This document shows, in pieces, positions 10,198-14,272 of a stretch of 64,000 nt of DNA. The translations under genes and the position numbers were made by a program. The stretch spans positions 5,362 through 69,361 of the forward strand of contig PTKS01000009.1 of the NCBI GenBank assembly GCA_002937855.1, given 5' to 3'. This stretch comes from Alphaproteobacteria bacterium MarineAlpha5_Bin12 (GTDB taxonomy: Bacteria; Pseudomonadota; Alphaproteobacteria; HIMB59; GCA-002718135). The notes under the pieces are model-generated. The model was not told where the DNA came from. It was given only the letters and a program-made list of their open reading frames with translations, and ran no database searches. Positions within the stretch are counted from its first letter, which is position 1. Each line of letters starts with the position of its first letter.

Positions 10198-10297
10198 TAA
10201 ATTAATCTTATCACTAAAAGTTAATTATGTTGATAAAAAAATATTAAATACTGTCAATAATATATAAAATAATAGAATTATATATTAAGTACTCATA

Positions 10298-10867
10298 ATG
10301 AATAAAAAGGCTAAAGCTATTTTAGATTTTTGGTTTATAAAAACTTCTCCAGAAGAAAAGTTCAATCGTAATGATGAATTTGATAAGAAAATAAAAGATC
10401 TTTTCTTAGAAGATTATAAAAAAGCGACAAACAATGAATATGATTATTGGCAAGAAAGTGCTGAAGAATGTTTAGCATTAATAGTATTATTAGATCAATT
10501 TTCCCGAAACTTATTTAGAAATGATCCTAAAGCATTTGCAATGGATTATAAAGCTCAAGCAATTGCTAAAAATGCTATAAATCGAAATTATCACAAATTA
10601 CTATCTAATAACTATATTTTATTTATTTTTTTACCTTTAATGCATAGTGAAGAGTTGGATGACCAATTACAGTGCAATAAATTGATTGATGAATACTTAA
10701 AAGATAATAAGAACTATAAAGAAATAAGTAAATTCACAAATATACACTTAGATATAATTAAAAAATTTGGAAGATTCCCATATAGGAATAAAGTATTAAA
10801 AAGAAAGAATACGAAAAAAGAAAATGATTATTTGAATTCTACTCATCATGGATTTTTTAATATTTAA
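10298..10867 (+). CDS. DUF924 family protein
   Basis: 189 aa. LLDQFSRNLFR and HSE motifs are characteristic of DUF924. Confidence 0.7.
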   Translation: MNKKAKAILDFWFIKTSPEEKFNRNDEFDKKIKDLFLEDYKKATNNEYDYWQESAEECLALIVLLDQFSRNLFRNDPKAFAMDYKAQAIAKNAINRNYHKLLSNNYILFIFLPLMHSEELDDQLQCNKLIDEYLKDNKNYKEISKFTNIHLDIIKKFGRFPYRNKVLKRKNTKKENDYLNSTHHGFFNI

Positions 10868-12318
10868 TTATTATTTTTTAAAGTTTCATTAATTTGATTT
10901 GCTAATAATGCATAACCTTCATTAGTATAATGATTTGGAAGTTCAAATGGGAAATAACTAAGTGGATTTTCTTGATTACTCAAAACATCATTAAAATCGA
11001 CAACTTGTATATCTAAAGATTTAACAATATTTATTAATTCTTTTTTATTTTGCAAAAAAGGTTTATTATTTGTATATTCCTCCCAGCTTGGCAAATATAT
11101 AAAATAAAAATTACCACCCCAGCTTTCAGTAGTTTCTTTTGCTTTTAACAATATTTTAGAAAAATCATTTTTAGTTTCTTCAGCACAAAAATAATCTACA
11201 CAAGAATATTTATTATCATATAAATTAAGTAAATTTCGAATATTTGTAAATTTGAAAAAAAACAATATTTCTAAAAATTTTCCATGAATATTATCTTGGA
11301 TAATTAATTGTGATTTTAAAAATTTTGCTTCTTTTTTTTTCTTAAATTCTTTTACCATTATATCTACTGCAGAAATTCTTTTGTCCAAATATTTGGATAA
11401 GAAGTTATCTATTTCATCTTGTCTATTGATCAAATTTTGAGAATAATCATTATTTAAATATTTTATTAATATTTCATTTTTCAATTCAGAGAATAAATCT
11501 TCTACATCACCTCTAAAATAAAACCATAGAAGATTTTTTGGTTTATAAATAGAGGCATATTCTTTTAAAATTGCTAATTCGATTAATGGGCCGCTTCCAG
11601 CATAACCATAATTCAAAGAGGTATAATTAAATTTTCTTAAATGGCTTGTCACATCTTCATCCATTTTAACGCAAGCTCCTTGCACAAAAGAATCTCCGAT
11701 TGATATAATATCTATATTTTTTTTATATGCGTAATTGGGATTATTAAATCCATATTTATCTGATTCATACTCAGCCCAATAACCTGATTCATTACAATTA
11801 ACTGTAAGTTTATTTGATATTCCACTGAGTGGATAAATATTATTTTCTAAACTATACCTCACTGCATCATTTTCGCTTTTAAAATCTTGTTTTCCTCTCC
11901 ATATACTTGGAGGAAAAATAGGAACAGGATCTAAACCCTGGGATGTTAAATCTTTCATATATTCTAATTTTGATCTGGGCTCATATAATTTTGCATTTTC
12001 TTGACTTTTTTTTAGAGCAAGACCTCTATTAAAAAATGTAGAATTAATAAGTAATATCTCTACAATTATTAAACTAATTATAATTGTGATAGATGAGATA
12101 GAAATTACCGCTTTCCACTCAGTATTTAAATAAAAAATTGTAAAAATATAAAATAATAAAATAACAATAATAATTGATAAAAAAAATAAATTAAATAGAA
12201 AACTGTGGGCTGGTACTCGGTATAAAAATAATAAAAATAAAAGAAAATTTGTTACAATAGCTGAAACTATTATAAAATTATTGAATTGTTTTAATAGTTT
12301 GTTTTCTAAATTTATCAT
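10864..12318 (-). CDS. Membrane-anchored SGNH/AlgX-AlgJ-like protein (putative polysaccharide O-acyl esterase/transferase)
   Basis: 484 aa. Three N-terminal hydrophobic helices, GDS block ISIGDSFVQG, Gly block GYAGSGP and a C-terminal HYTNEGYALLA block. Assignment is by motif only. Confidence 0.4.
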   Translation of the reverse strand: MINLENKLLKQFNNFIIVSAIVTNFLLFLLFLYRVPAHSFLFNLFFLSIIIVILLFYIFTIFYLNTEWKAVISISSITIIISLIIVEILLINSTFFNRGLALKKSQENAKLYEPRSKLEYMKDLTSQGLDPVPIFPPSIWRGKQDFKSENDAVRYSLENNIYPLSGISNKLTVNCNESGYWAEYESDKYGFNNPNYAYKKNIDIISIGDSFVQGACVKMDEDVTSHLRKFNYTSLNYGYAGSGPLIELAILKEYASIYKPKNLLWFYFRGDVEDLFSELKNEILIKYLNNDYSQNLINRQDEIDNFLSKYLDKRISAVDIMVKEFKKKKEAKFLKSQLIIQDNIHGKFLEILFFFKFTNIRNLLNLYDNKYSCVDYFCAEETKNDFSKILLKAKETTESWGGNFYFIYLPSWEEYTNNKPFLQNKKELINIVKSLDIQVVDFNDVLSNQENPLSYFPFELPNHYTNEGYALLANQINETLKNNN

Positions 12319-12329
12319 ATTTATATCCT

Positions 12330-12396
12330 TGGCGCGCCCGAGATGATTCGAACATCCGACCCCAGAATTAGGAATTCTGTACTCTATCCAAACTAG
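12330..12396 (-). repeat. Partial copy of the 3-prime ~67 nt of tRNA-Arg(CCT) (att-like scar; 5-prime acceptor arm absent)
   Basis: 12330-12380 is identical (51/51) to 13672-13722. There is one mismatch at 12381. Identity holds through ctctatccaa and then decays. Confidence 0.9.
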
Positions 12397-12414
12397 AAAT
12401 TAATTCAAGTCTTT

Positions 12415-12470
12415 CCGCGGGTTTTGAAAATGGAAAAGTGGTTTTTTGAAAGTGAAAAGAGACCTGAGAG
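12415..12470 (-). repeat. Left subterminal copy of a ~56-nt imperfect direct repeat (core 12432-12456)
   Basis: The core ggaaaag-tgg-ttttttgaa-a-gtgaa recurs at 13582-13607 as ggaaaag-ggtg-ttttttgaa-c-gtgaa. The flanks ccgYg and cct also recur. Confidence 0.6.
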
Positions 12471-12497
12471 AGACTTAAAAAATTTGATTAATTTCAT

Positions 12498-12731
12498 TCA
12501 TTTTCTAAAAATCCTATTTAACACTTTATAAGAAAAAATAGTTAATAGAATCCAAACGAAATAACCTAAAAGGTTAAACCAATAAAAAAAGCCTAAATCC
12601 TCCCTTACATAAGTCTCTATTTGCTCCCTCCCTACGTCGAATTGGTAATAAATCATCGCGCTAGCCATCGTTAAGATGAAACCTAGAAGGATTGCGGATA
12701 TCAGTTTTACGGTGAGTTTGAAATATTGCAT
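12498..12731 (-). CDS. Hypothetical 77-aa protein with two predicted transmembrane helices
   Basis: Hydrophobic stretches LISAILLGFILTMASAMIY and FYWFNLLGYFVWILLTIF. It is the last gene of the islet cassette. No family recognised. Confidence 0.5.
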   Translation of the reverse strand: MQYFKLTVKLISAILLGFILTMASAMIYYQFDVGREQIETYVREDLGFFYWFNLLGYFVWILLTIFSYKVLNRIFRK

Positions 12732-12741
12732 AATTTTTTCA

Positions 12742-13326
12742 TCATAATCCCGTCACATCAATATCATAGCCCTTACCCGTATCATAAGCTTTCAAATCCT
12801 CTTCTTGGTAAATTTTAGCTAGTTCTGGAATATTTGGTTCGTCTTCCTTTAAGGCTAAATAAATTTCAATTTGCTTATAATAATCACTTTTCCCAAATAT
12901 CGTAAAATTCAGTTCCTTGCTTGGTTCATTGGGATGAACAAAATTACCATAATCTCTTCTAAAAGGAATAATCTTGCTATCATAAGGAACAAACTCGTAG
13001 GTGTGCATAGATTGAAAAAGTTTATAATAAAAAATTGCGTAAGAGATCAAATAAGTCTCGATAAAAAAATTAGTCAAATCTTCATAGAGCTCCATTACAT
13101 CATCAATTGCCATCGGTGATAAGGTGTACGCGTAAATTCTCTTAATTTTCATATCCTTTTTCTCACAAGAGACACCGTAGTTTGTAAAAATCAAATTGGG
13201 GTTTGGCGGTAAATCAATATCGATGTCGTATTCTTCTTCTACTAATTCTTTTTTTGTAACTTCAAAGTTTGTTTCATCAAAAACTTCGCCTAATTTTAAA
13301 CCAAATAATCCCTCAAGTTTTTTCAT
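12742..13326 (-). CDS. Hypothetical 194-aa acidic cytoplasmic protein, no recognised family
   Basis: Longest ORF of the islet. Its start lies 1 nt after the stop of the upstream 72-aa ORF. Confidence 0.6.
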   Translation of the reverse strand: MKKLEGLFGLKLGEVFDETNFEVTKKELVEEEYDIDIDLPPNPNLIFTNYGVSCEKKDMKIKRIYAYTLSPMAIDDVMELYEDLTNFFIETYLISYAIFYYKLFQSMHTYEFVPYDSKIIPFRRDYGNFVHPNEPSKELNFTIFGKSDYYKQIEIYLALKEDEPNIPELAKIYQEEDLKAYDTGKGYDIDVTGL

Positions 13327-13327
13327 T

Positions 13328-13546
13328 TTATGATAATAATTTTTTCAATTCCTTTATTCGATTTTTAAAAACTATTTCTATTGATTTAATTGTTTTTAAT
13401 CGCTCTTTTTTATTATTTTCAATACTCTTGTATTTTATTAAAAACTTATTGATTGCCTTAATTGCTTCTTCGTCTTTTTTTTCCATAATTTTTTGCAACT
13501 TAATCAATTCAACAAAATCTTTTTTAGACGTTTTCTTTTTCATCAC
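13328..13546 (-). CDS. Hypothetical 72-aa Lys/Glu-rich, probably all-helical protein
   Basis: First gene of the islet cassette. Charged heptad-like sequence. No family recognised. Confidence 0.45.
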   Translation of the reverse strand: MMKKKTSKKDFVELIKLQKIMEKKDEEAIKAINKFLIKYKSIENNKKERLKTIKSIEIVFKNRIKELKKLLS

Positions 13547-13563
13547 GATTATCCTACCACCAA

Positions 13564-13620
13564 CCGTGAGGAATGTTGAGGGGAAAAGGGTGTTTTTTGA
13601 ACGTGAAGGAATCCTCTAGG
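13564..13620 (-). repeat. Right subterminal copy of the ~56-nt imperfect direct repeat (core 13582-13607)
   Basis: See the left copy. It lies between the tRNA 3-prime end and the first cassette gene. Confidence 0.6.
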
Positions 13621-13671
13621 TATCCAAAAAAGGAAATAAAAGAATATAAATAAAAATTTATCGCAGAAAAG

Positions 13672-13748
13672 TGGCGCGCCCGAGATGATTCGAACATCCG
13701 ACCCCAGAATTAGGAATTCTGTGCTCTATCCAACTGAGCTACGGGCGC
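13672..13748 (-). tRNA. tRNA-Arg (anticodon CCT), CCA encoded
   Basis: The reverse complement GCGCCCGTAGCTCAGTTGGATAGAGCACAGAATTCCTAATTCTGGGGTCGGATGTTCGAATCATCTCGGGCGCGCCA folds as a cloverleaf. It has a perfect 7-bp acceptor stem, GCTC/GAGC D stem, CAGAA/TTCTG anticodon stem with loop TTCCTAA, and a TTCGAAT T loop. Confidence 0.95.
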
Positions 13749-13762
13749 TTTAAATTATTATA

Positions 13763-14272
13763 TTAAAAAGACGACTGATAAGATAGAGACAAAATCTCAG
13801 TACCAGGATTTTTATTACCTAAGCTAGCATTAGAAATATGTCCGATACTTAAGCCAATTCTGTCGCCTGATGGTATTTCGTAGCTTAGCTCTAAAGTACT
13901 TCTGAACTGAACTACATTTCCTAGATCTTTACCATCTCCATTTGAATATAATCCACCGCCAAAACTTGGCGTTAAATAAATTTTTCTTGAAATTTTTTCT
14001 TCAACATAAAAACCTCCCAATCCGTATGCAGCACCATCGGAAGTTATTTCAATTCCATAAAAAGGTTTTATTGTATAAAGCGGCTCTACTGAAGGGCCAA
14101 GATCAAATATTTTTTTATCTAACCTTCTTTCAAAACGAAAATCTATCGCTTCATTTTTTTTCTTGTTAAAATCATATAAGCCTAAACCAAAAATATTTAA
14201 TTCATCAGAATTAGCAAAATTTGGTTTAAGAAATAAAAAAATTAATAAAAAACTAAATACTGTTATTTTCAC
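13763..14272 (-). CDS. Outer-membrane beta-barrel acyloxyacyl hydrolase (lipid A 3-O-deacylase PagL-like)
   Basis: 169 aa. Signal peptide, alternating beta-strand pattern, GHISNASLGNKNPGTE (HxSN catalytic motif) and a C-terminal aromatic residue. Confidence 0.65.
   Translation of the reverse strand: MKITVFSFLLIFLFLKPNFANSDELNIFGLGLYDFNKKKNEAIDFRFERRLDKKIFDLGPSVEPLYTIKPFYGIEITSDGAAYGLGGFYVEEKISRKIYLTPSFGGGLYSNGDGKDLGNVVQFRSTLELSYEIPSGDRIGLSIGHISNASLGNKNPGTEILSLSYQSSF

What the first reader, a model, noticed from the sequence alone, without database searches (positions are those of the whole stretch)
12330..13748. tRNA-Arg(CCT) plus a 51-nt perfect copy of its 3-prime half 1.3 kb downstream: att-like scars of an integrase-less mini-island
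The intact 77-nt tRNA lies at 13672-13748 (minus strand). Bases 12330-12380 are identical to 13672-13722, running from the CCA end through the anticodon stem. Similarity continues with mismatches through the D-loop to ~12396, and the 5-prime acceptor arm is missing. That is the textbook footprint of site-specific integration into the 3-prime half of a tRNA gene. The enclosed 1275 bp carry three orphan ORFs and no integrase or excisionase. The element is therefore either the decayed stump of a prophage/island or a very small satellite-like element mobilised in trans. Temperate pelagiphages have been reported to integrate into SAR11 tRNA genes, so a phage origin is plausible.
Basis: partly seen in the sequence, partly recalled or inferred. 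Interest (0 to 1): 0.8.

Follow-up and report, generated by a model that had tools for sequence, protein, structure and literature searches.

The report
Integrase-less mini-island in tRNA-Arg gene
A 1.3-kb piece of foreign DNA with no recombinase of its own sits in a tRNA-Arg gene of an abundant marine bacterium, is precisely absent from sister strains, and begins with a conserved ~30-base motif that marks the joints of shuffled gene cassettes in hundreds of ocean metagenome contigs.

Summary
tRNA-Arg(CCT) lies at 13672-13748 (-). Its 3' 62 nt recur at 12330-12391 (51 nt perfect, one mismatch), enclosing three ORFs and no recombinase.

The integration reading is supported. Four metagenome contigs from near-identical strains carry the exact empty site, with the tRNA followed directly by the 484-aa gene. 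One contig shows a tandem, attP-like junction. Other strains carry different cargo at the same site.

The host is a HIMB59-clade alphaproteobacterium (MarineAlpha5_Bin12-like), not core SAR11. No phage link was found.

The island ends are conserved element termini. The same right-end module flanks partial tRNA-Gly copies elsewhere, including cargo-less mini-elements. The ORF72-ORF194 cargo, 94-99.9% identical, also sits beside tRNA-Val and tRNA-Gly and beside non-tRNA genes.

The cargo starts with the motif TCAACATTCCTCGTGGTTGGTGGTAGGAT. It has at least 120 metagenome hits, none in IMG/VR, and one copy in the window. Elsewhere it forms co-oriented arrays about 1 kb apart, and homology between contigs breaks inside its core. 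Phage-type tyrosine integrases occur on 7 of 120 motif contigs.

Best reading: a non-autonomous, CIME-like integrative element carrying a motif-headed cassette. The recombinase and current activity are inferred, not shown.

The parts
13672..13748 (-). Intact tRNA-Arg(CCT). Its 3' 62 nt (13672-13733) are the attL copy of the direct repeat.
   Evidence: ARAGORN; Rfam RF00005 at 65.2 bits; repeat family D1.
12330..12391 (-). Displaced partial tRNA-Arg (D-loop to CCA): the attR copy of the repeat. It is 51 nt perfect and 62 nt with one mismatch at 12381.
   Evidence: It scores below the tRNA threshold at 23.4 bits. In empty-site alleles this copy and the attL copy collapse into a single tRNA.
13608..13671 (-). 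Left-arm spacer next to the tRNA 3' end (element side of attL).
   Evidence: Absent from the empty-site alleles. In L229 it follows a second right-end module plus core, which is the tandem / attP-like junction.
13585..13607 (-). Arm repeat TTCACGTTCAAAAAACACCC, a candidate arm-type binding site. It is a direct repeat of 12434-12456.
   Evidence: Repeat family D9, 23 nt at 83%. The same sequence lies beside tRNA-Gly in L087 and, in related form, in L203 and L118.
13548..13587 (-). Conserved cassette-head motif (core CCTCAACATTCCTCACGGTTGGTGGTAGGAT at 13555-13581 and beyond), directly upstream of the ORF72 start. It is promoter/RBS-like.
   Evidence: The only copy in the window. At least 120 metagenome contigs match exactly. 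It is the point at which homology with L094, L232, L088 and L237 starts or stops.
13328..13546 (-). ORF72: a small Lys-rich protein, predicted helical from composition, of unknown function.
   Evidence: No family hit. It belongs to a narrow family at 68-100% identity that, in every context examined, is followed by ORF194.
12742..13326 (-). ORF194: a conserved acidic protein of unknown function. It travels with ORF72. A 60%-identical relative overlaps the stop codon of a tyrosine integrase gene in L221.
   Evidence: The AlphaFold model is unusable (pLDDT 40).
12498..12731 (-). ORF77: a small hydrophobic protein with two apparent transmembrane segments (read by eye). It is present in the window-type island and in L232, but not in the tRNA-Val or MORN contexts.
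12411..12459 (-). Right-end module (in tRNA orientation, TTCACTTTCAAAAAACCACTTTTCCATTTTCAAAACCCGCGGAAAG), containing the second arm repeat at 12434-12456.
   Evidence: The same module lies next to partial tRNA-Gly(GCC) in L118, L138 and L141. A 2-mismatch variant forms the tandem junction in L229.
12392..12410 (-). Spacer between the right-end module and the partial tRNA. Positions 12392-12398 keep degenerate D-arm similarity, reflecting the element-borne tRNA-like part of attP.
   Evidence: Sequence reading.
10864..12318 (-). Host flank: the 484-aa membrane protein gene. In empty-site alleles it starts 11 nt after the tRNA.
13763..14272 (-). Host flank: the PagL-like gene upstream of the tRNA. 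It was used to retrieve the occupied and empty alleles.
   Evidence: Pfam PF09411.

Best explanation
The segment is a 1,342-bp non-autonomous integrative element, in the sense of a cis-mobilizable element (CIME). It sits in the 3' part of the tRNA-Arg(CCT) gene of a HIMB59-clade marine alphaproteobacterium.

Origin. An element-borne tRNA-like attP recombined with the tRNA gene. That attP comprised the right-end module, 62 nt of tRNA-like core and the left arm. The event left an intact tRNA at attL, rebuilt from element DNA, and the displaced native 3' part at attR.

Mobility. The element has no recombinase, so further excision or transfer needs a tyrosine integrase from a related element. That integrase could act in trans, or in cis after tandem accretion.

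Cargo. The cargo is a compact cassette of ORF72-ORF194 plus ORF77, headed by a conserved promoter/RBS-like motif. The same cassette is exchanged between different docking sites by recombination inside that motif.

Shown: the repeat; the precise empty site; the tandem junction; alternative cargos at the same site; conserved termini at other tRNAs; the same cargo in other contexts; phage-type integrases on related contigs.

Inferred: catalysis by a tyrosine integrase; which integrase it is; present-day activity; promoter function of the motif.
For: 1. att footprint. The 62-nt direct repeat of the tRNA 3' part is not expected by chance.

2. Precise empty site. L092, L097, L098 and L099 encode a PagL protein identical to the window's. 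Their left flank is 99.1-99.7% identical at the DNA level. They lack exactly the 1342 bp between the repeats.

3. Several alleles in strains whose left flank is at least 99% identical to the window:
- empty;
- the island, 100% identical across JGI, NCBI MAG, Tara and GOS contigs;
- L094, with the same tRNA, arm and motif but a different 121-aa ORF;
- L165, with a different cargo, the motif and a diverged partial tRNA;
- L229, in which a right-end variant is followed by the core, the left arm, the island and attR, giving a tandem or attP-like junction.

4. Conserved termini. The right-end module recurs next to partial tRNA-Gly(GCC) in L118, L138 and L141. In L118 and L138 the motif is followed almost directly by the right-end module, so these are cargo-less elements of about 190 bp.

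5. Tandem arrays of tRNA fragments occur in related genomes. L010 has 5 tRNA-Arg(CCT) pieces and L118 has 4 tRNA-Gly pieces.

6. The ORF72-ORF194 module occurs in other contexts:
- after tRNA-Val(GAC), at 94.4-94.6% identity (L224, L233);
- after a tRNA-Gly 3' end (L087);
- after a MORN-repeat gene (L237);
- after another non-tRNA gene, at 99.9% identity starting exactly at the motif (L232).

7. Tyrosine recombinases. A signature scan found them on 7 of 120 motif-bearing contigs. The five scanned against Pfam hit PF00589 at E 1e-20 to 1e-24. Most lie next to tRNA genes or fragments. A 60%-identical ORF194 relative overlaps the stop codon of such an integrase (L221). That integrase aligns over its full length with temperate-phage integrases.
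Against: - No integrase-bearing element with the same arms or right-end module was found, so the helper is hypothetical.
- All occupied alleles are nearly clonal. The empty alleles come from slightly diverged strains, with the right flank 96-98.7% identical. The island/empty polymorphism alone could therefore reflect a single old gain or loss.
- No unambiguous circular form was seen. Contigs such as L089 begin and end in the repeat, as expected from assembly-graph breaks. L229 is a single contig end.
- L087 may be partly chimeric, because its mismatches cluster in the first ~120 nt.
- The left boundaries of the shared cargo vary (window 13631, 13607, 13593, 13580, 13540). That fits homology-driven exchange as well as a fixed site-specific crossover.
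- The rest of the host genome could not be inspected for integrases.
Confidence: 0.6

Rival explanations
1. Inert relic. A larger integrative element or island once integrated here, then lost its integrase and most genes by deletion. What remains is immobile. Empty alleles are either ancestral strains or deletions by RecA recombination between the 62-nt repeats.
For: There is no recombinase in the island or in the 64-kb window. Occupied alleles are clonal and empty ones belong to slightly diverged strains. L222 shows that related modules do decay: only the last ~14 codons of an integrase remain upstream of the ORF194 relative.
Against: Both termini are intact and conserved with elements at other tRNAs, including cargo-less copies. 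The 51-nt repeat is perfect. There are several different alleles and a tandem junction at this one site in near-identical strains. The cargo is 94-99.9% identical in at least four other contexts, which needs recent movement.
Confidence: 0.25
2. Two-level system. The tRNA-linked arms form a resident docking platform, which is seen empty in L118 and L138. The three ORFs arrived later as a motif-headed cassette, by recombination inside the conserved motif. That recombination could be site-specific or homology-driven, as with PeSL cassettes of T4-type phages. The tRNA repeat would then not date the arrival of the genes.
For: - Cargo-less platforms exist.
- L094 shares the tRNA, arm and motif but has other cargo.
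- L232 shares the motif and cargo but has another upstream gene, at 99.9% identity.
- L114 equals L197 plus one 558-bp motif-plus-GNAT unit, with the motif duplicated.
- Among motif-centred segments, 62 pairs are homologous only on the left, 59 only on the right and 34 on both sides.
- The motif's 5' edge travels with the left flank and its tail with the right flank. Exchange points therefore lie inside the 25-nt core.
Against: The empty-site alleles in this species lack the platform as well, so at least one event moved platform and cargo together. No recombinase specific for the motif is known. The motif shows no attC-like fold. Boundaries of shared segments are not all at one position.
Confidence: 0.3
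3. Stump of a temperate pelagiphage or phage satellite that integrated into the tRNA gene.
For: Podoviral pelagiphages do integrate into SAR11 tRNA genes, including a tRNA-Arg (10.1101/410191). The integrase on the related contig L221 is of the temperate-phage type.
Against: IMG/VR gave no hit to the core, the motif (two versions), ORF194 or two integrases. INPHARED phages gave only generic tRNA-Arg matches at 76-78% identity and nothing for ORF194. PHROGs gave no significant hit. No structural or replication genes appear on any related contig examined.
Confidence: 0.05
4. No mobile element. The repeat is a chance or assembly-generated duplication of part of the tRNA gene.
For: None beyond the small size of the insert.
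Against: No matches are expected by chance. The same structure occurs in more than 20 independent contigs from different projects and assemblers. Precise empty alleles exist.
Confidence: 0.01

Closest known systems
CIMEs (cis-mobilizable elements) and tandem accretion at tRNA att sites, as described for Streptococcus ICE/IME families (PMC5704250)
   Same: The element is bounded by attL and attR in the 3' end of a tRNA gene and lacks integration and transfer genes. Tandem arrangement with another element at the same site is seen (L229), and arrays of tRNA fragments occur in relatives.
   Different: The host is a streamlined planktonic alphaproteobacterium with no known conjugative partner. The element is tiny (1.3 kb). 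No cognate autonomous element has been identified. The cargo is headed by a conserved motif that is itself an exchange point.
Tycheposons of Prochlorococcus (10.1101/2020.12.28.424599)
   Same: Small cargo-carrying elements integrated at tRNA genes of a streamlined marine bacterium. Partial tRNAs mark the boundaries. There are tandem integrations and degenerate remnants, and populations are heterogeneous.
   Different: There is no integrase or replication module here. The phylum and the integrases on related contigs are different, and their relationship to tycheposon recombinases was not tested. No equivalent of the cassette-head motif is mentioned in the passages of that paper that I searched.
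tRNA/tmRNA-integrated genomic islands as defined in Islander (PMC4383910)
   Same: A regenerated intact tRNA plus a displaced 3' fragment precisely mark the endpoints. The identity block runs to the CCA end.
   Different: That definition relies on an island-encoded tyrosine integrase, which is absent here.
Integron cassette arrays
   Same: In related contigs the motif forms co-oriented arrays (92 same-orientation adjacent pairs against 3 opposite) with a median spacing of 1017 bp. Single cassette indels occur with the site duplicated, and the same cassettes occur in different contexts.
   Different: The site is a 25-45-nt sequence at the 5' end of the ORF and includes an RBS-like AGGA. It lacks the R''-L''/L'-R' attC architecture and has no significant hairpin. 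The integrases on related contigs score far below the integron-integrase cutoff. No attI/intI platform was seen.
PeSL mobile regulatory cassettes of T4-type phages (PMC2839356, PMC4122927)
   Same: Short conserved expression signals flank small accessory ORFs. Insertions, deletions and replacements between relatives have their breakpoints in these motifs. Exchange between neighbouring copies could release circles.
   Different: This is cellular DNA, not phage. No terminator stem-loop was detected. Promoter activity is untested. The motif is linked to tRNA docking sites and tyrosine integrases.
Temperate HTVC019P-type pelagiphages integrating into SAR11 tRNA genes (10.1101/410191)
   Same: tRNA gene as attB; tyrosine-integrase type chemistry is inferred.
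   Different: No phage genes are present and no phage carries the core. The host is HIMB59-clade rather than Pelagibacter.

Membership tests
tRNA-integrated genomic island (Islander-type) | Intact tRNA gene at one end | tested here: met
   tRNA-Arg(CCT) at 13672-13748, 65.2 bits.
tRNA-integrated genomic island (Islander-type) | Displaced tRNA fragment as a direct repeat at the other end | tested here: met
   62 nt at 12330-12391 with 1 mismatch.
tRNA-integrated genomic island (Islander-type) | Island-encoded tyrosine integrase | tested here: not met
   The three ORFs have no PF00589 or other hit. No recombinase signature was found in window ORFs.
tRNA-integrated genomic island (Islander-type) | Precise absence in related genomes (attB) | tested here: met
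   L092, L097, L098 and L099.
CIME (cis-mobilizable element) | Retains attL and attR of an integrative-element family | tested here: met
   Repeat plus arms. The right-end module is shared with elements at tRNA-Gly.
CIME (cis-mobilizable element) | Has lost, or lacks, integration and transfer genes | tested here: met
CIME (cis-mobilizable element) | Accretion with a cognate autonomous element at its att site | tested here: inconclusive
   L229 shows a second right-end module joined through the core to this island. The partner's content is unknown and there is only one contig.
CIME (cis-mobilizable element) | Excision or transfer when the integrase is supplied | not testable with these tools
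   Needs experiments or raw reads.
Tycheposon | Element-encoded tyrosine or large serine recombinase together with a replication module | tested here: not met
   None in the island.
Tycheposon | Integration at tRNA genes with partial tRNA repeats, tandem copies and remnants | tested here: met
Integron / attC cassette | IntI-type integrase | tested here: not met
   Integrases on related contigs score 18-25 bits against TIGR02249, whose cutoff is 265. There is none in the window.
Integron / attC cassette | attC site of 57-141 nt with paired R''/L'' and L'/R' boxes forming a hairpin | tested here: not met
   The conserved block is about 25-45 nt. Folding is no better than shuffles (z-scores 0.17 and -0.56). 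There is no conserved upstream partner.
Integron / attC cassette | Co-oriented repeated sites separating cassettes of about 1 kb | tested here: met
   92 same-orientation adjacent pairs against 3 opposite; median spacing 1017 bp. This applies to related contigs, not to the window.
Prophage or phage-satellite remnant | Phage-derived genes, or an attP in a phage genome | tested here: not met
PeSL-like mobile regulatory cassette | Conserved promoter plus terminator stem-loop | tested here: inconclusive
   All motif variants keep a hexamer-17 nt-hexamer geometry (by eye). The consensus scan does not call it a promoter and finds no terminator. There is no significant fold.
PeSL-like mobile regulatory cassette | Breakpoints of insertions, deletions and replacements between relatives fall in the motif | tested here: met

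The most novel reading that the evidence does not exclude
The mini-island is one visible copy of an undescribed gene-cassette system of HIMB59/SAR11-like marine alphaproteobacteria.

In this reading, cassettes are headed by a nearly invariant 25-nt core (TCAACATTCCTCGTGGTTGGTGGTA, followed by GGATAAT and a start codon). They recombine inside that core and stack into co-oriented, integron-like arrays. Small att-bearing platforms and phage-type tyrosine integrases dock them next to tRNA genes.

This would be a mechanism for gene flow in streamlined ocean bacteria that otherwise seem to lack mobile elements. Integrons were not seen on any contig examined here. From my own knowledge, not checked here, they are reported as absent from Alphaproteobacteria.
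Probability: 0.35. Interest if true: 0.85.

Novelty: new variant of a known kind. Interest (0 to 1): 0.7.

Why it matters
How streamlined ocean bacteria such as SAR11 and HIMB59 acquire their large flexible gene pools is an open question. They have almost no recognisable mobile elements. Recent work on complete Pelagibacter genomes infers insertion at tRNA-anchored boundaries but names no vehicle (10.64898/2026.04.03.716430). A study of HIMB59 islands found no hallmarks of mobile elements (PMC10734472).

This locus provides a concrete, testable vehicle:
- a minimal att-bounded element with conserved arms, polymorphic among near-identical wild strains;
- a conserved cassette-head motif at which genes are demonstrably reshuffled.

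Both can be followed in existing metagenomes, by searching for junction reads and by a motif census. Both can also be tested in culture with integrase assays and promoter or recombination reporters.

Tried and rejected
- Phage origin. I scanned IMG/VR for the 36-nt core, two motif patterns, ORF194 and two integrases, and found nothing. BLAST of the whole locus, and tblastn of ORF194, against INPHARED phages gave only generic tRNA-Arg matches and no ORF194 match.

- Structured RNA. Rfam at a permissive E-value found only the tRNA. Folding of the motif is no better than shuffles.

- Function of the ORFs. Pfam, PHROGs, NCBIfam and PADLOC gave nothing. The AlphaFold2 model of ORF194, built from a 14-sequence alignment, has pLDDT 40, so I ran no fold search. 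A profile search of 1.84 billion representatives gave 33 hits. These include secreted proteins with the domain repeated, but they have no Pfam annotation.

- ORF72 as an integrase remnant. There is no similarity to the L221 integrase.

- Synteny in reference genomes. The one genome-contig scan returned only relatives about 50% identical (HIMB59-clade SAGs and MAGs), mostly without a tRNA at this position. It did not give empty sites. Those came from exact-protein look-ups instead.

- Integron reading of the motif. Rejected on attC architecture and integrase family.

- Circular form. Contigs that start and end inside the repeat (L084, L089, L230) are explained by assembly-graph breaks and are not counted as evidence.

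- Decayed motif copy upstream of the SDR gene, around 10200-10240. It looks similar by eye but nhmmer does not detect it, so I make no claim.

- L165's downstream flank. The gene downstream of L165's partial tRNA reads by eye as an asd homologue. It has no DNA match anywhere in the window. Its placement is unresolved.
Full report
**1. The observation**

ARAGORN finds a single tRNA in the window: tRNA-Arg(CCT) at 13672-13748 on the minus strand. Rfam scores it at 65.2 bits.

The 51-mer at 12330-12380 is identical to 13672-13722. These are the only two copies in the window at up to 3 mismatches, and none of 100 shuffles gave a match. The repeat runs for 62 nt with one mismatch, 12330-12391 against 13672-13733, at a spacing of 1342 bp. 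Degenerate D-arm similarity continues to about 12398. The partial copy scores 23.4 bits, below the tRNA threshold of 29.

The 1280 bp between the copies hold three minus-strand ORFs of 72, 194 and 77 aa. None matches Pfam, PHROGs, NCBIfam or PADLOC. No tyrosine-recombinase signature occurs in any window ORF of 100 aa or more.

**2. Host**

The closest genomes in the species-level collection are HIMB59 / 'MarineAlpha5' SAGs and MAGs. They are about 50% identical in the neighbouring 264-aa protein, and the CarD, 264-aa and PagL genes lie in the same order in L073.

ORF72 is identical to a hypothetical protein of 'Alphaproteobacteria bacterium MarineAlpha5_Bin12'. The MAG contig PBAN01000004.1 carries the island at 99.97% identity. 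The host is thus a HIMB59-clade bacterium (former SAR11 clade V), not core Pelagibacter.

**3. Empty sites and other alleles**

I looked up contigs that encode exactly the window's PagL-like protein. Ten places were returned.

- Four (L092, L097, L098, L099) go straight from the tRNA to the 484-aa gene.
- Alignment shows window 16000-13672 and 12391-9000 joined through a single 62-nt copy.
- The junction reads ...CGCGCCA|AGGATATAAATATG.

Occupied alleles are 99.9-100% identical in at least 20 contigs from JGI, NCBI, Tara and GOS assemblies. The empty alleles are 99.1-99.7% identical on the left flank and 96-98.7% on the right. They therefore belong to slightly diverged strains.

Further alleles exist at the same site:
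- L094 shares the tRNA, left arm and motif, then continues with a different 121-aa ORF.
- L165 has the identical PagL, the tRNA, a 225-aa membrane protein, the motif and a diverged 46-nt partial tRNA.
- L229 begins with a 2-mismatch variant of the right-end module. That is joined through the core to the left arm, the island and attR, giving a tandem or attP-like junction.

**4. The ends are element termini**

Read in tRNA orientation, the island has this layout:
- the tRNA;
- a 64-nt spacer;
- TTCACGTTCAAAAAACACCC;
- TTTTCC followed by the motif;
- ORF72, ORF194 and ORF77;
- TTCACTTTCAAAAAACCAC-TTTTCC-ATTTTCAAAACCCGCGGAAAG;
- 19 nt;
- the partial tRNA.

The two TTCAC.TTCAAAAAAC copies are direct repeats (family D9). 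In a circular form they would flank the core, as arm-type sites do.

The right-end module recurs with few changes next to partial tRNA-Gly(GCC) copies in L118, L138 and L141. In L118 and L138 the motif is followed after about 25 nt by the right-end module. These are cargo-less elements of about 190 bp between tRNA-Gly copies.

Related genomes show stacks of tRNA fragments. L010 has five tRNA-Arg(CCT) pieces, including two full genes 2.2 kb apart. L118 has four tRNA-Gly pieces. L154 has a 67-nt tmRNA 3' duplicate. This is the pattern of repeated integration at one site described for tycheposons (10.1101/2020.12.28.424599) and for CIME/ICE accretion (PMC5704250).

**5. The cargo moves**

ORF72 and ORF194 form narrow families. 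The ORF72-ORF194 unit occurs in several other places:
- after a full tRNA-Val(GAC) with a variant motif, at 94.4-94.6% identity. Homology ends exactly at the ORF194 stop codon (L224, L233, L234, L235);
- after a MORN-repeat gene, with homology running from the arm repeat onward (L237);
- after a tRNA-Gly 3' end (L087). The right part of that contig may be chimeric, because its mismatches cluster in the first ~120 nt;
- after an unrelated non-tRNA gene, at 99.9% identity starting exactly at the motif's 5' edge (L232, a k127 contig).

A 60%-identical ORF194 relative overlaps by 4 nt the stop of a 325-aa tyrosine integrase, next to the 5' half of a tRNA-Arg(ACG) (L221). In L222 only the last ~14 integrase codons remain. 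That integrase aligns over its full length, at 38.6% identity, with integrases of temperate Pseudomonas phages.

The function of ORF194 remains unknown. The AlphaFold model is poor. Its N-terminal domain is repeated in secreted proteins that have no annotation.

**6. The motif**

The sequence just upstream of ORF72 is CCTCAACATTCCTCACGGTTGGTGGTAGGATAATCGTGATG. It was not found in 2.9 million IMG/VR contigs. It occurs once in the window and twice in 1.44 Mb of HIMB59 SAG/MAG loci. One of those two copies lies between the two tRNA-Arg(CCT) genes of L010.

A profile built from these copies finds 270 copies on 135 sequences. Ninety-nine by-catch copies, which were not selected by the search pattern, are about 90-99% conserved at nearly every position of TCAACATTCCTCGTGGTTGGTGGTA.

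Other properties:
- Adjacent copies are co-oriented in 92 of 95 cases, with a median spacing of 1017 bp.
- About half are followed within a few nucleotides by an ATG-initiated ORF. Many directly follow a stop codon.
- No Rfam family matches, folding is not significant, and no paper in the library contains the sequence.

Contigs that share one flank often differ on the other. L114 equals L197 plus one 558-bp motif-plus-GNAT unit, with the motif duplicated. Among motif-centred segments, 62 pairs are homologous only on the left, 59 only on the right and 34 on both sides. The motif's 5' edge is linked to the left flank and its tail to the right flank. Exchange points therefore lie inside the invariant core.

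All sequence variants keep a hexamer-17 nt-hexamer layout: TCAACA/TTAACA/TTAATC ... TAGGAT/TATAGT/TATAAT. This was read by eye, and the consensus scanner does not call it a promoter. I read the motif as a portable expression signal that also serves as the recombination joint. The closest analogue is the PeSL cassette of T4-type phages (PMC2839356, PMC4122927). The arrays resemble integrons, but the attC and IntI criteria fail.

Tyrosine recombinases occur on 7 of 120 motif contigs. That is far more than I would expect, from my own knowledge, for such genomes. In L159 and L206 the motif lies about 100 nt beyond the integrase stop codon, in convergent orientation.

**7. Explanation**

The best-supported reading is a non-autonomous integrative element that arose by attP x tRNA recombination and now depends on a related integrase. 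Its cargo is a motif-headed cassette that is exchanged among docking sites.

Shown:
- the att repeat;
- the precise empty site;
- multiple alleles and a tandem junction;
- termini conserved at other tRNAs;
- cargo mobility.

Inferred:
- the enzyme;
- trans or cis mobilisation;
- current activity;
- promoter function of the motif.

The main rival is an inert relic, since occupied alleles are clonal and no helper element was found. A phage origin has no support.

**8. Novelty**

tRNA-bounded islands, CIMEs and tycheposons are known kinds. New here are an integrase-less mini-element with conserved arms in the HIMB59 lineage and the associated cassette-head motif. To my knowledge, and by a literature search for the sequence, the motif is undescribed.

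Noticed in passing
window 13548-13587 (-); loci L101-L220: A conserved motif, TCAACATTCCTCGTGGTTGGTGGTA(GGATAAT). It occurs in at least 120 metagenome contigs and not in IMG/VR. It forms co-oriented arrays about 1 kb apart, for example 10 copies in L180 and 7 in L181. Mosaic breakpoints lie inside the core. It has no Rfam family and no literature hit.
   Followed up: yes
L118 (rc) ~60-340; L138 ~1190-1400: Cargo-less mini-elements of about 190 bp. Each consists of a tRNA-Gly copy, a short spacer, the motif, about 25 nt, the right-end module and a partial tRNA-Gly. They amount to bare att platforms.
   Followed up: partly
L010 13172-18334: A HIMB59 MAG (MarineAlpha5_Bin5) has five tRNA-Arg(CCT)-derived segments. 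These include two full genes 2.2 kb apart. Between them lie a methyltransferase-like gene and a motif-led fatty-acid-desaturase-like gene (both read by eye). The first tRNA copy lacks an encoded CCA.
   Followed up: partly
L159 (rc) ~100-190; L206 2990-3080; L105 and L209 contig ends: Between the integrase stop codon and the convergent motif lies a conserved stretch of about 75 nt. It encodes a 24-aa hydrophobic peptide (MICWLLSTALWWIGVIVVIMWLFF) on the integrase strand. This resembles a type I toxin, and the motif could drive an antisense transcript.
   Followed up: no
L154 1470-1782 and 5213-5279: A two-piece (permuted) tmRNA gene has a 67-nt copy of its 3' end 3.4 kb downstream. This is another att-bounded islet in a motif-bearing contig.
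   Followed up: no
window 10200-12400: The 484-aa and DUF924 genes next to attR have very low G+C (0.21-0.25, against about 0.30 around them). The right flank is more diverged between strains (96-98.7%) than the left. In a related contig (L178) the SDR homologue is directly motif-led and the DUF924 homologue sits between motif copies. This region may be an older cassette zone. A possible decayed motif upstream of the SDR gene (about 10200-10240) is not statistically detectable.
   Followed up: partly
P0050, P0055 (profile hits of ORF194): The N-terminal 'GxFGxKxGEVxD' domain of ORF194 is repeated 2-3 times in signal-peptide proteins. Nearly all family members end in the C-terminal tripeptide xGL (TGL, KGL or NGL).
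   Followed up: no
L221 895-935; L139 30-110; L159 75-160: Several integrase genes are preceded by only the 5' half of a tRNA (Arg-ACG, Leu-CAA, Ser-GCT) that breaks off after the anticodon or variable region. This suggests a second class of elements that duplicates the 5' part of the tRNA. L010 and L107 have the motif about 100 nt upstream of the full tRNA, which fits that class.
   Followed up: partly
L165 (rc) 1426-2511: This contig shares a 99.5%-identical PagL and tRNA with the window. Beyond its partial tRNA it continues into a gene that reads by eye as an asd homologue. That sequence has no match anywhere in the 64-kb window. The cause is either a rearranged strain or a join through a second att-like site.
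   Followed up: partly
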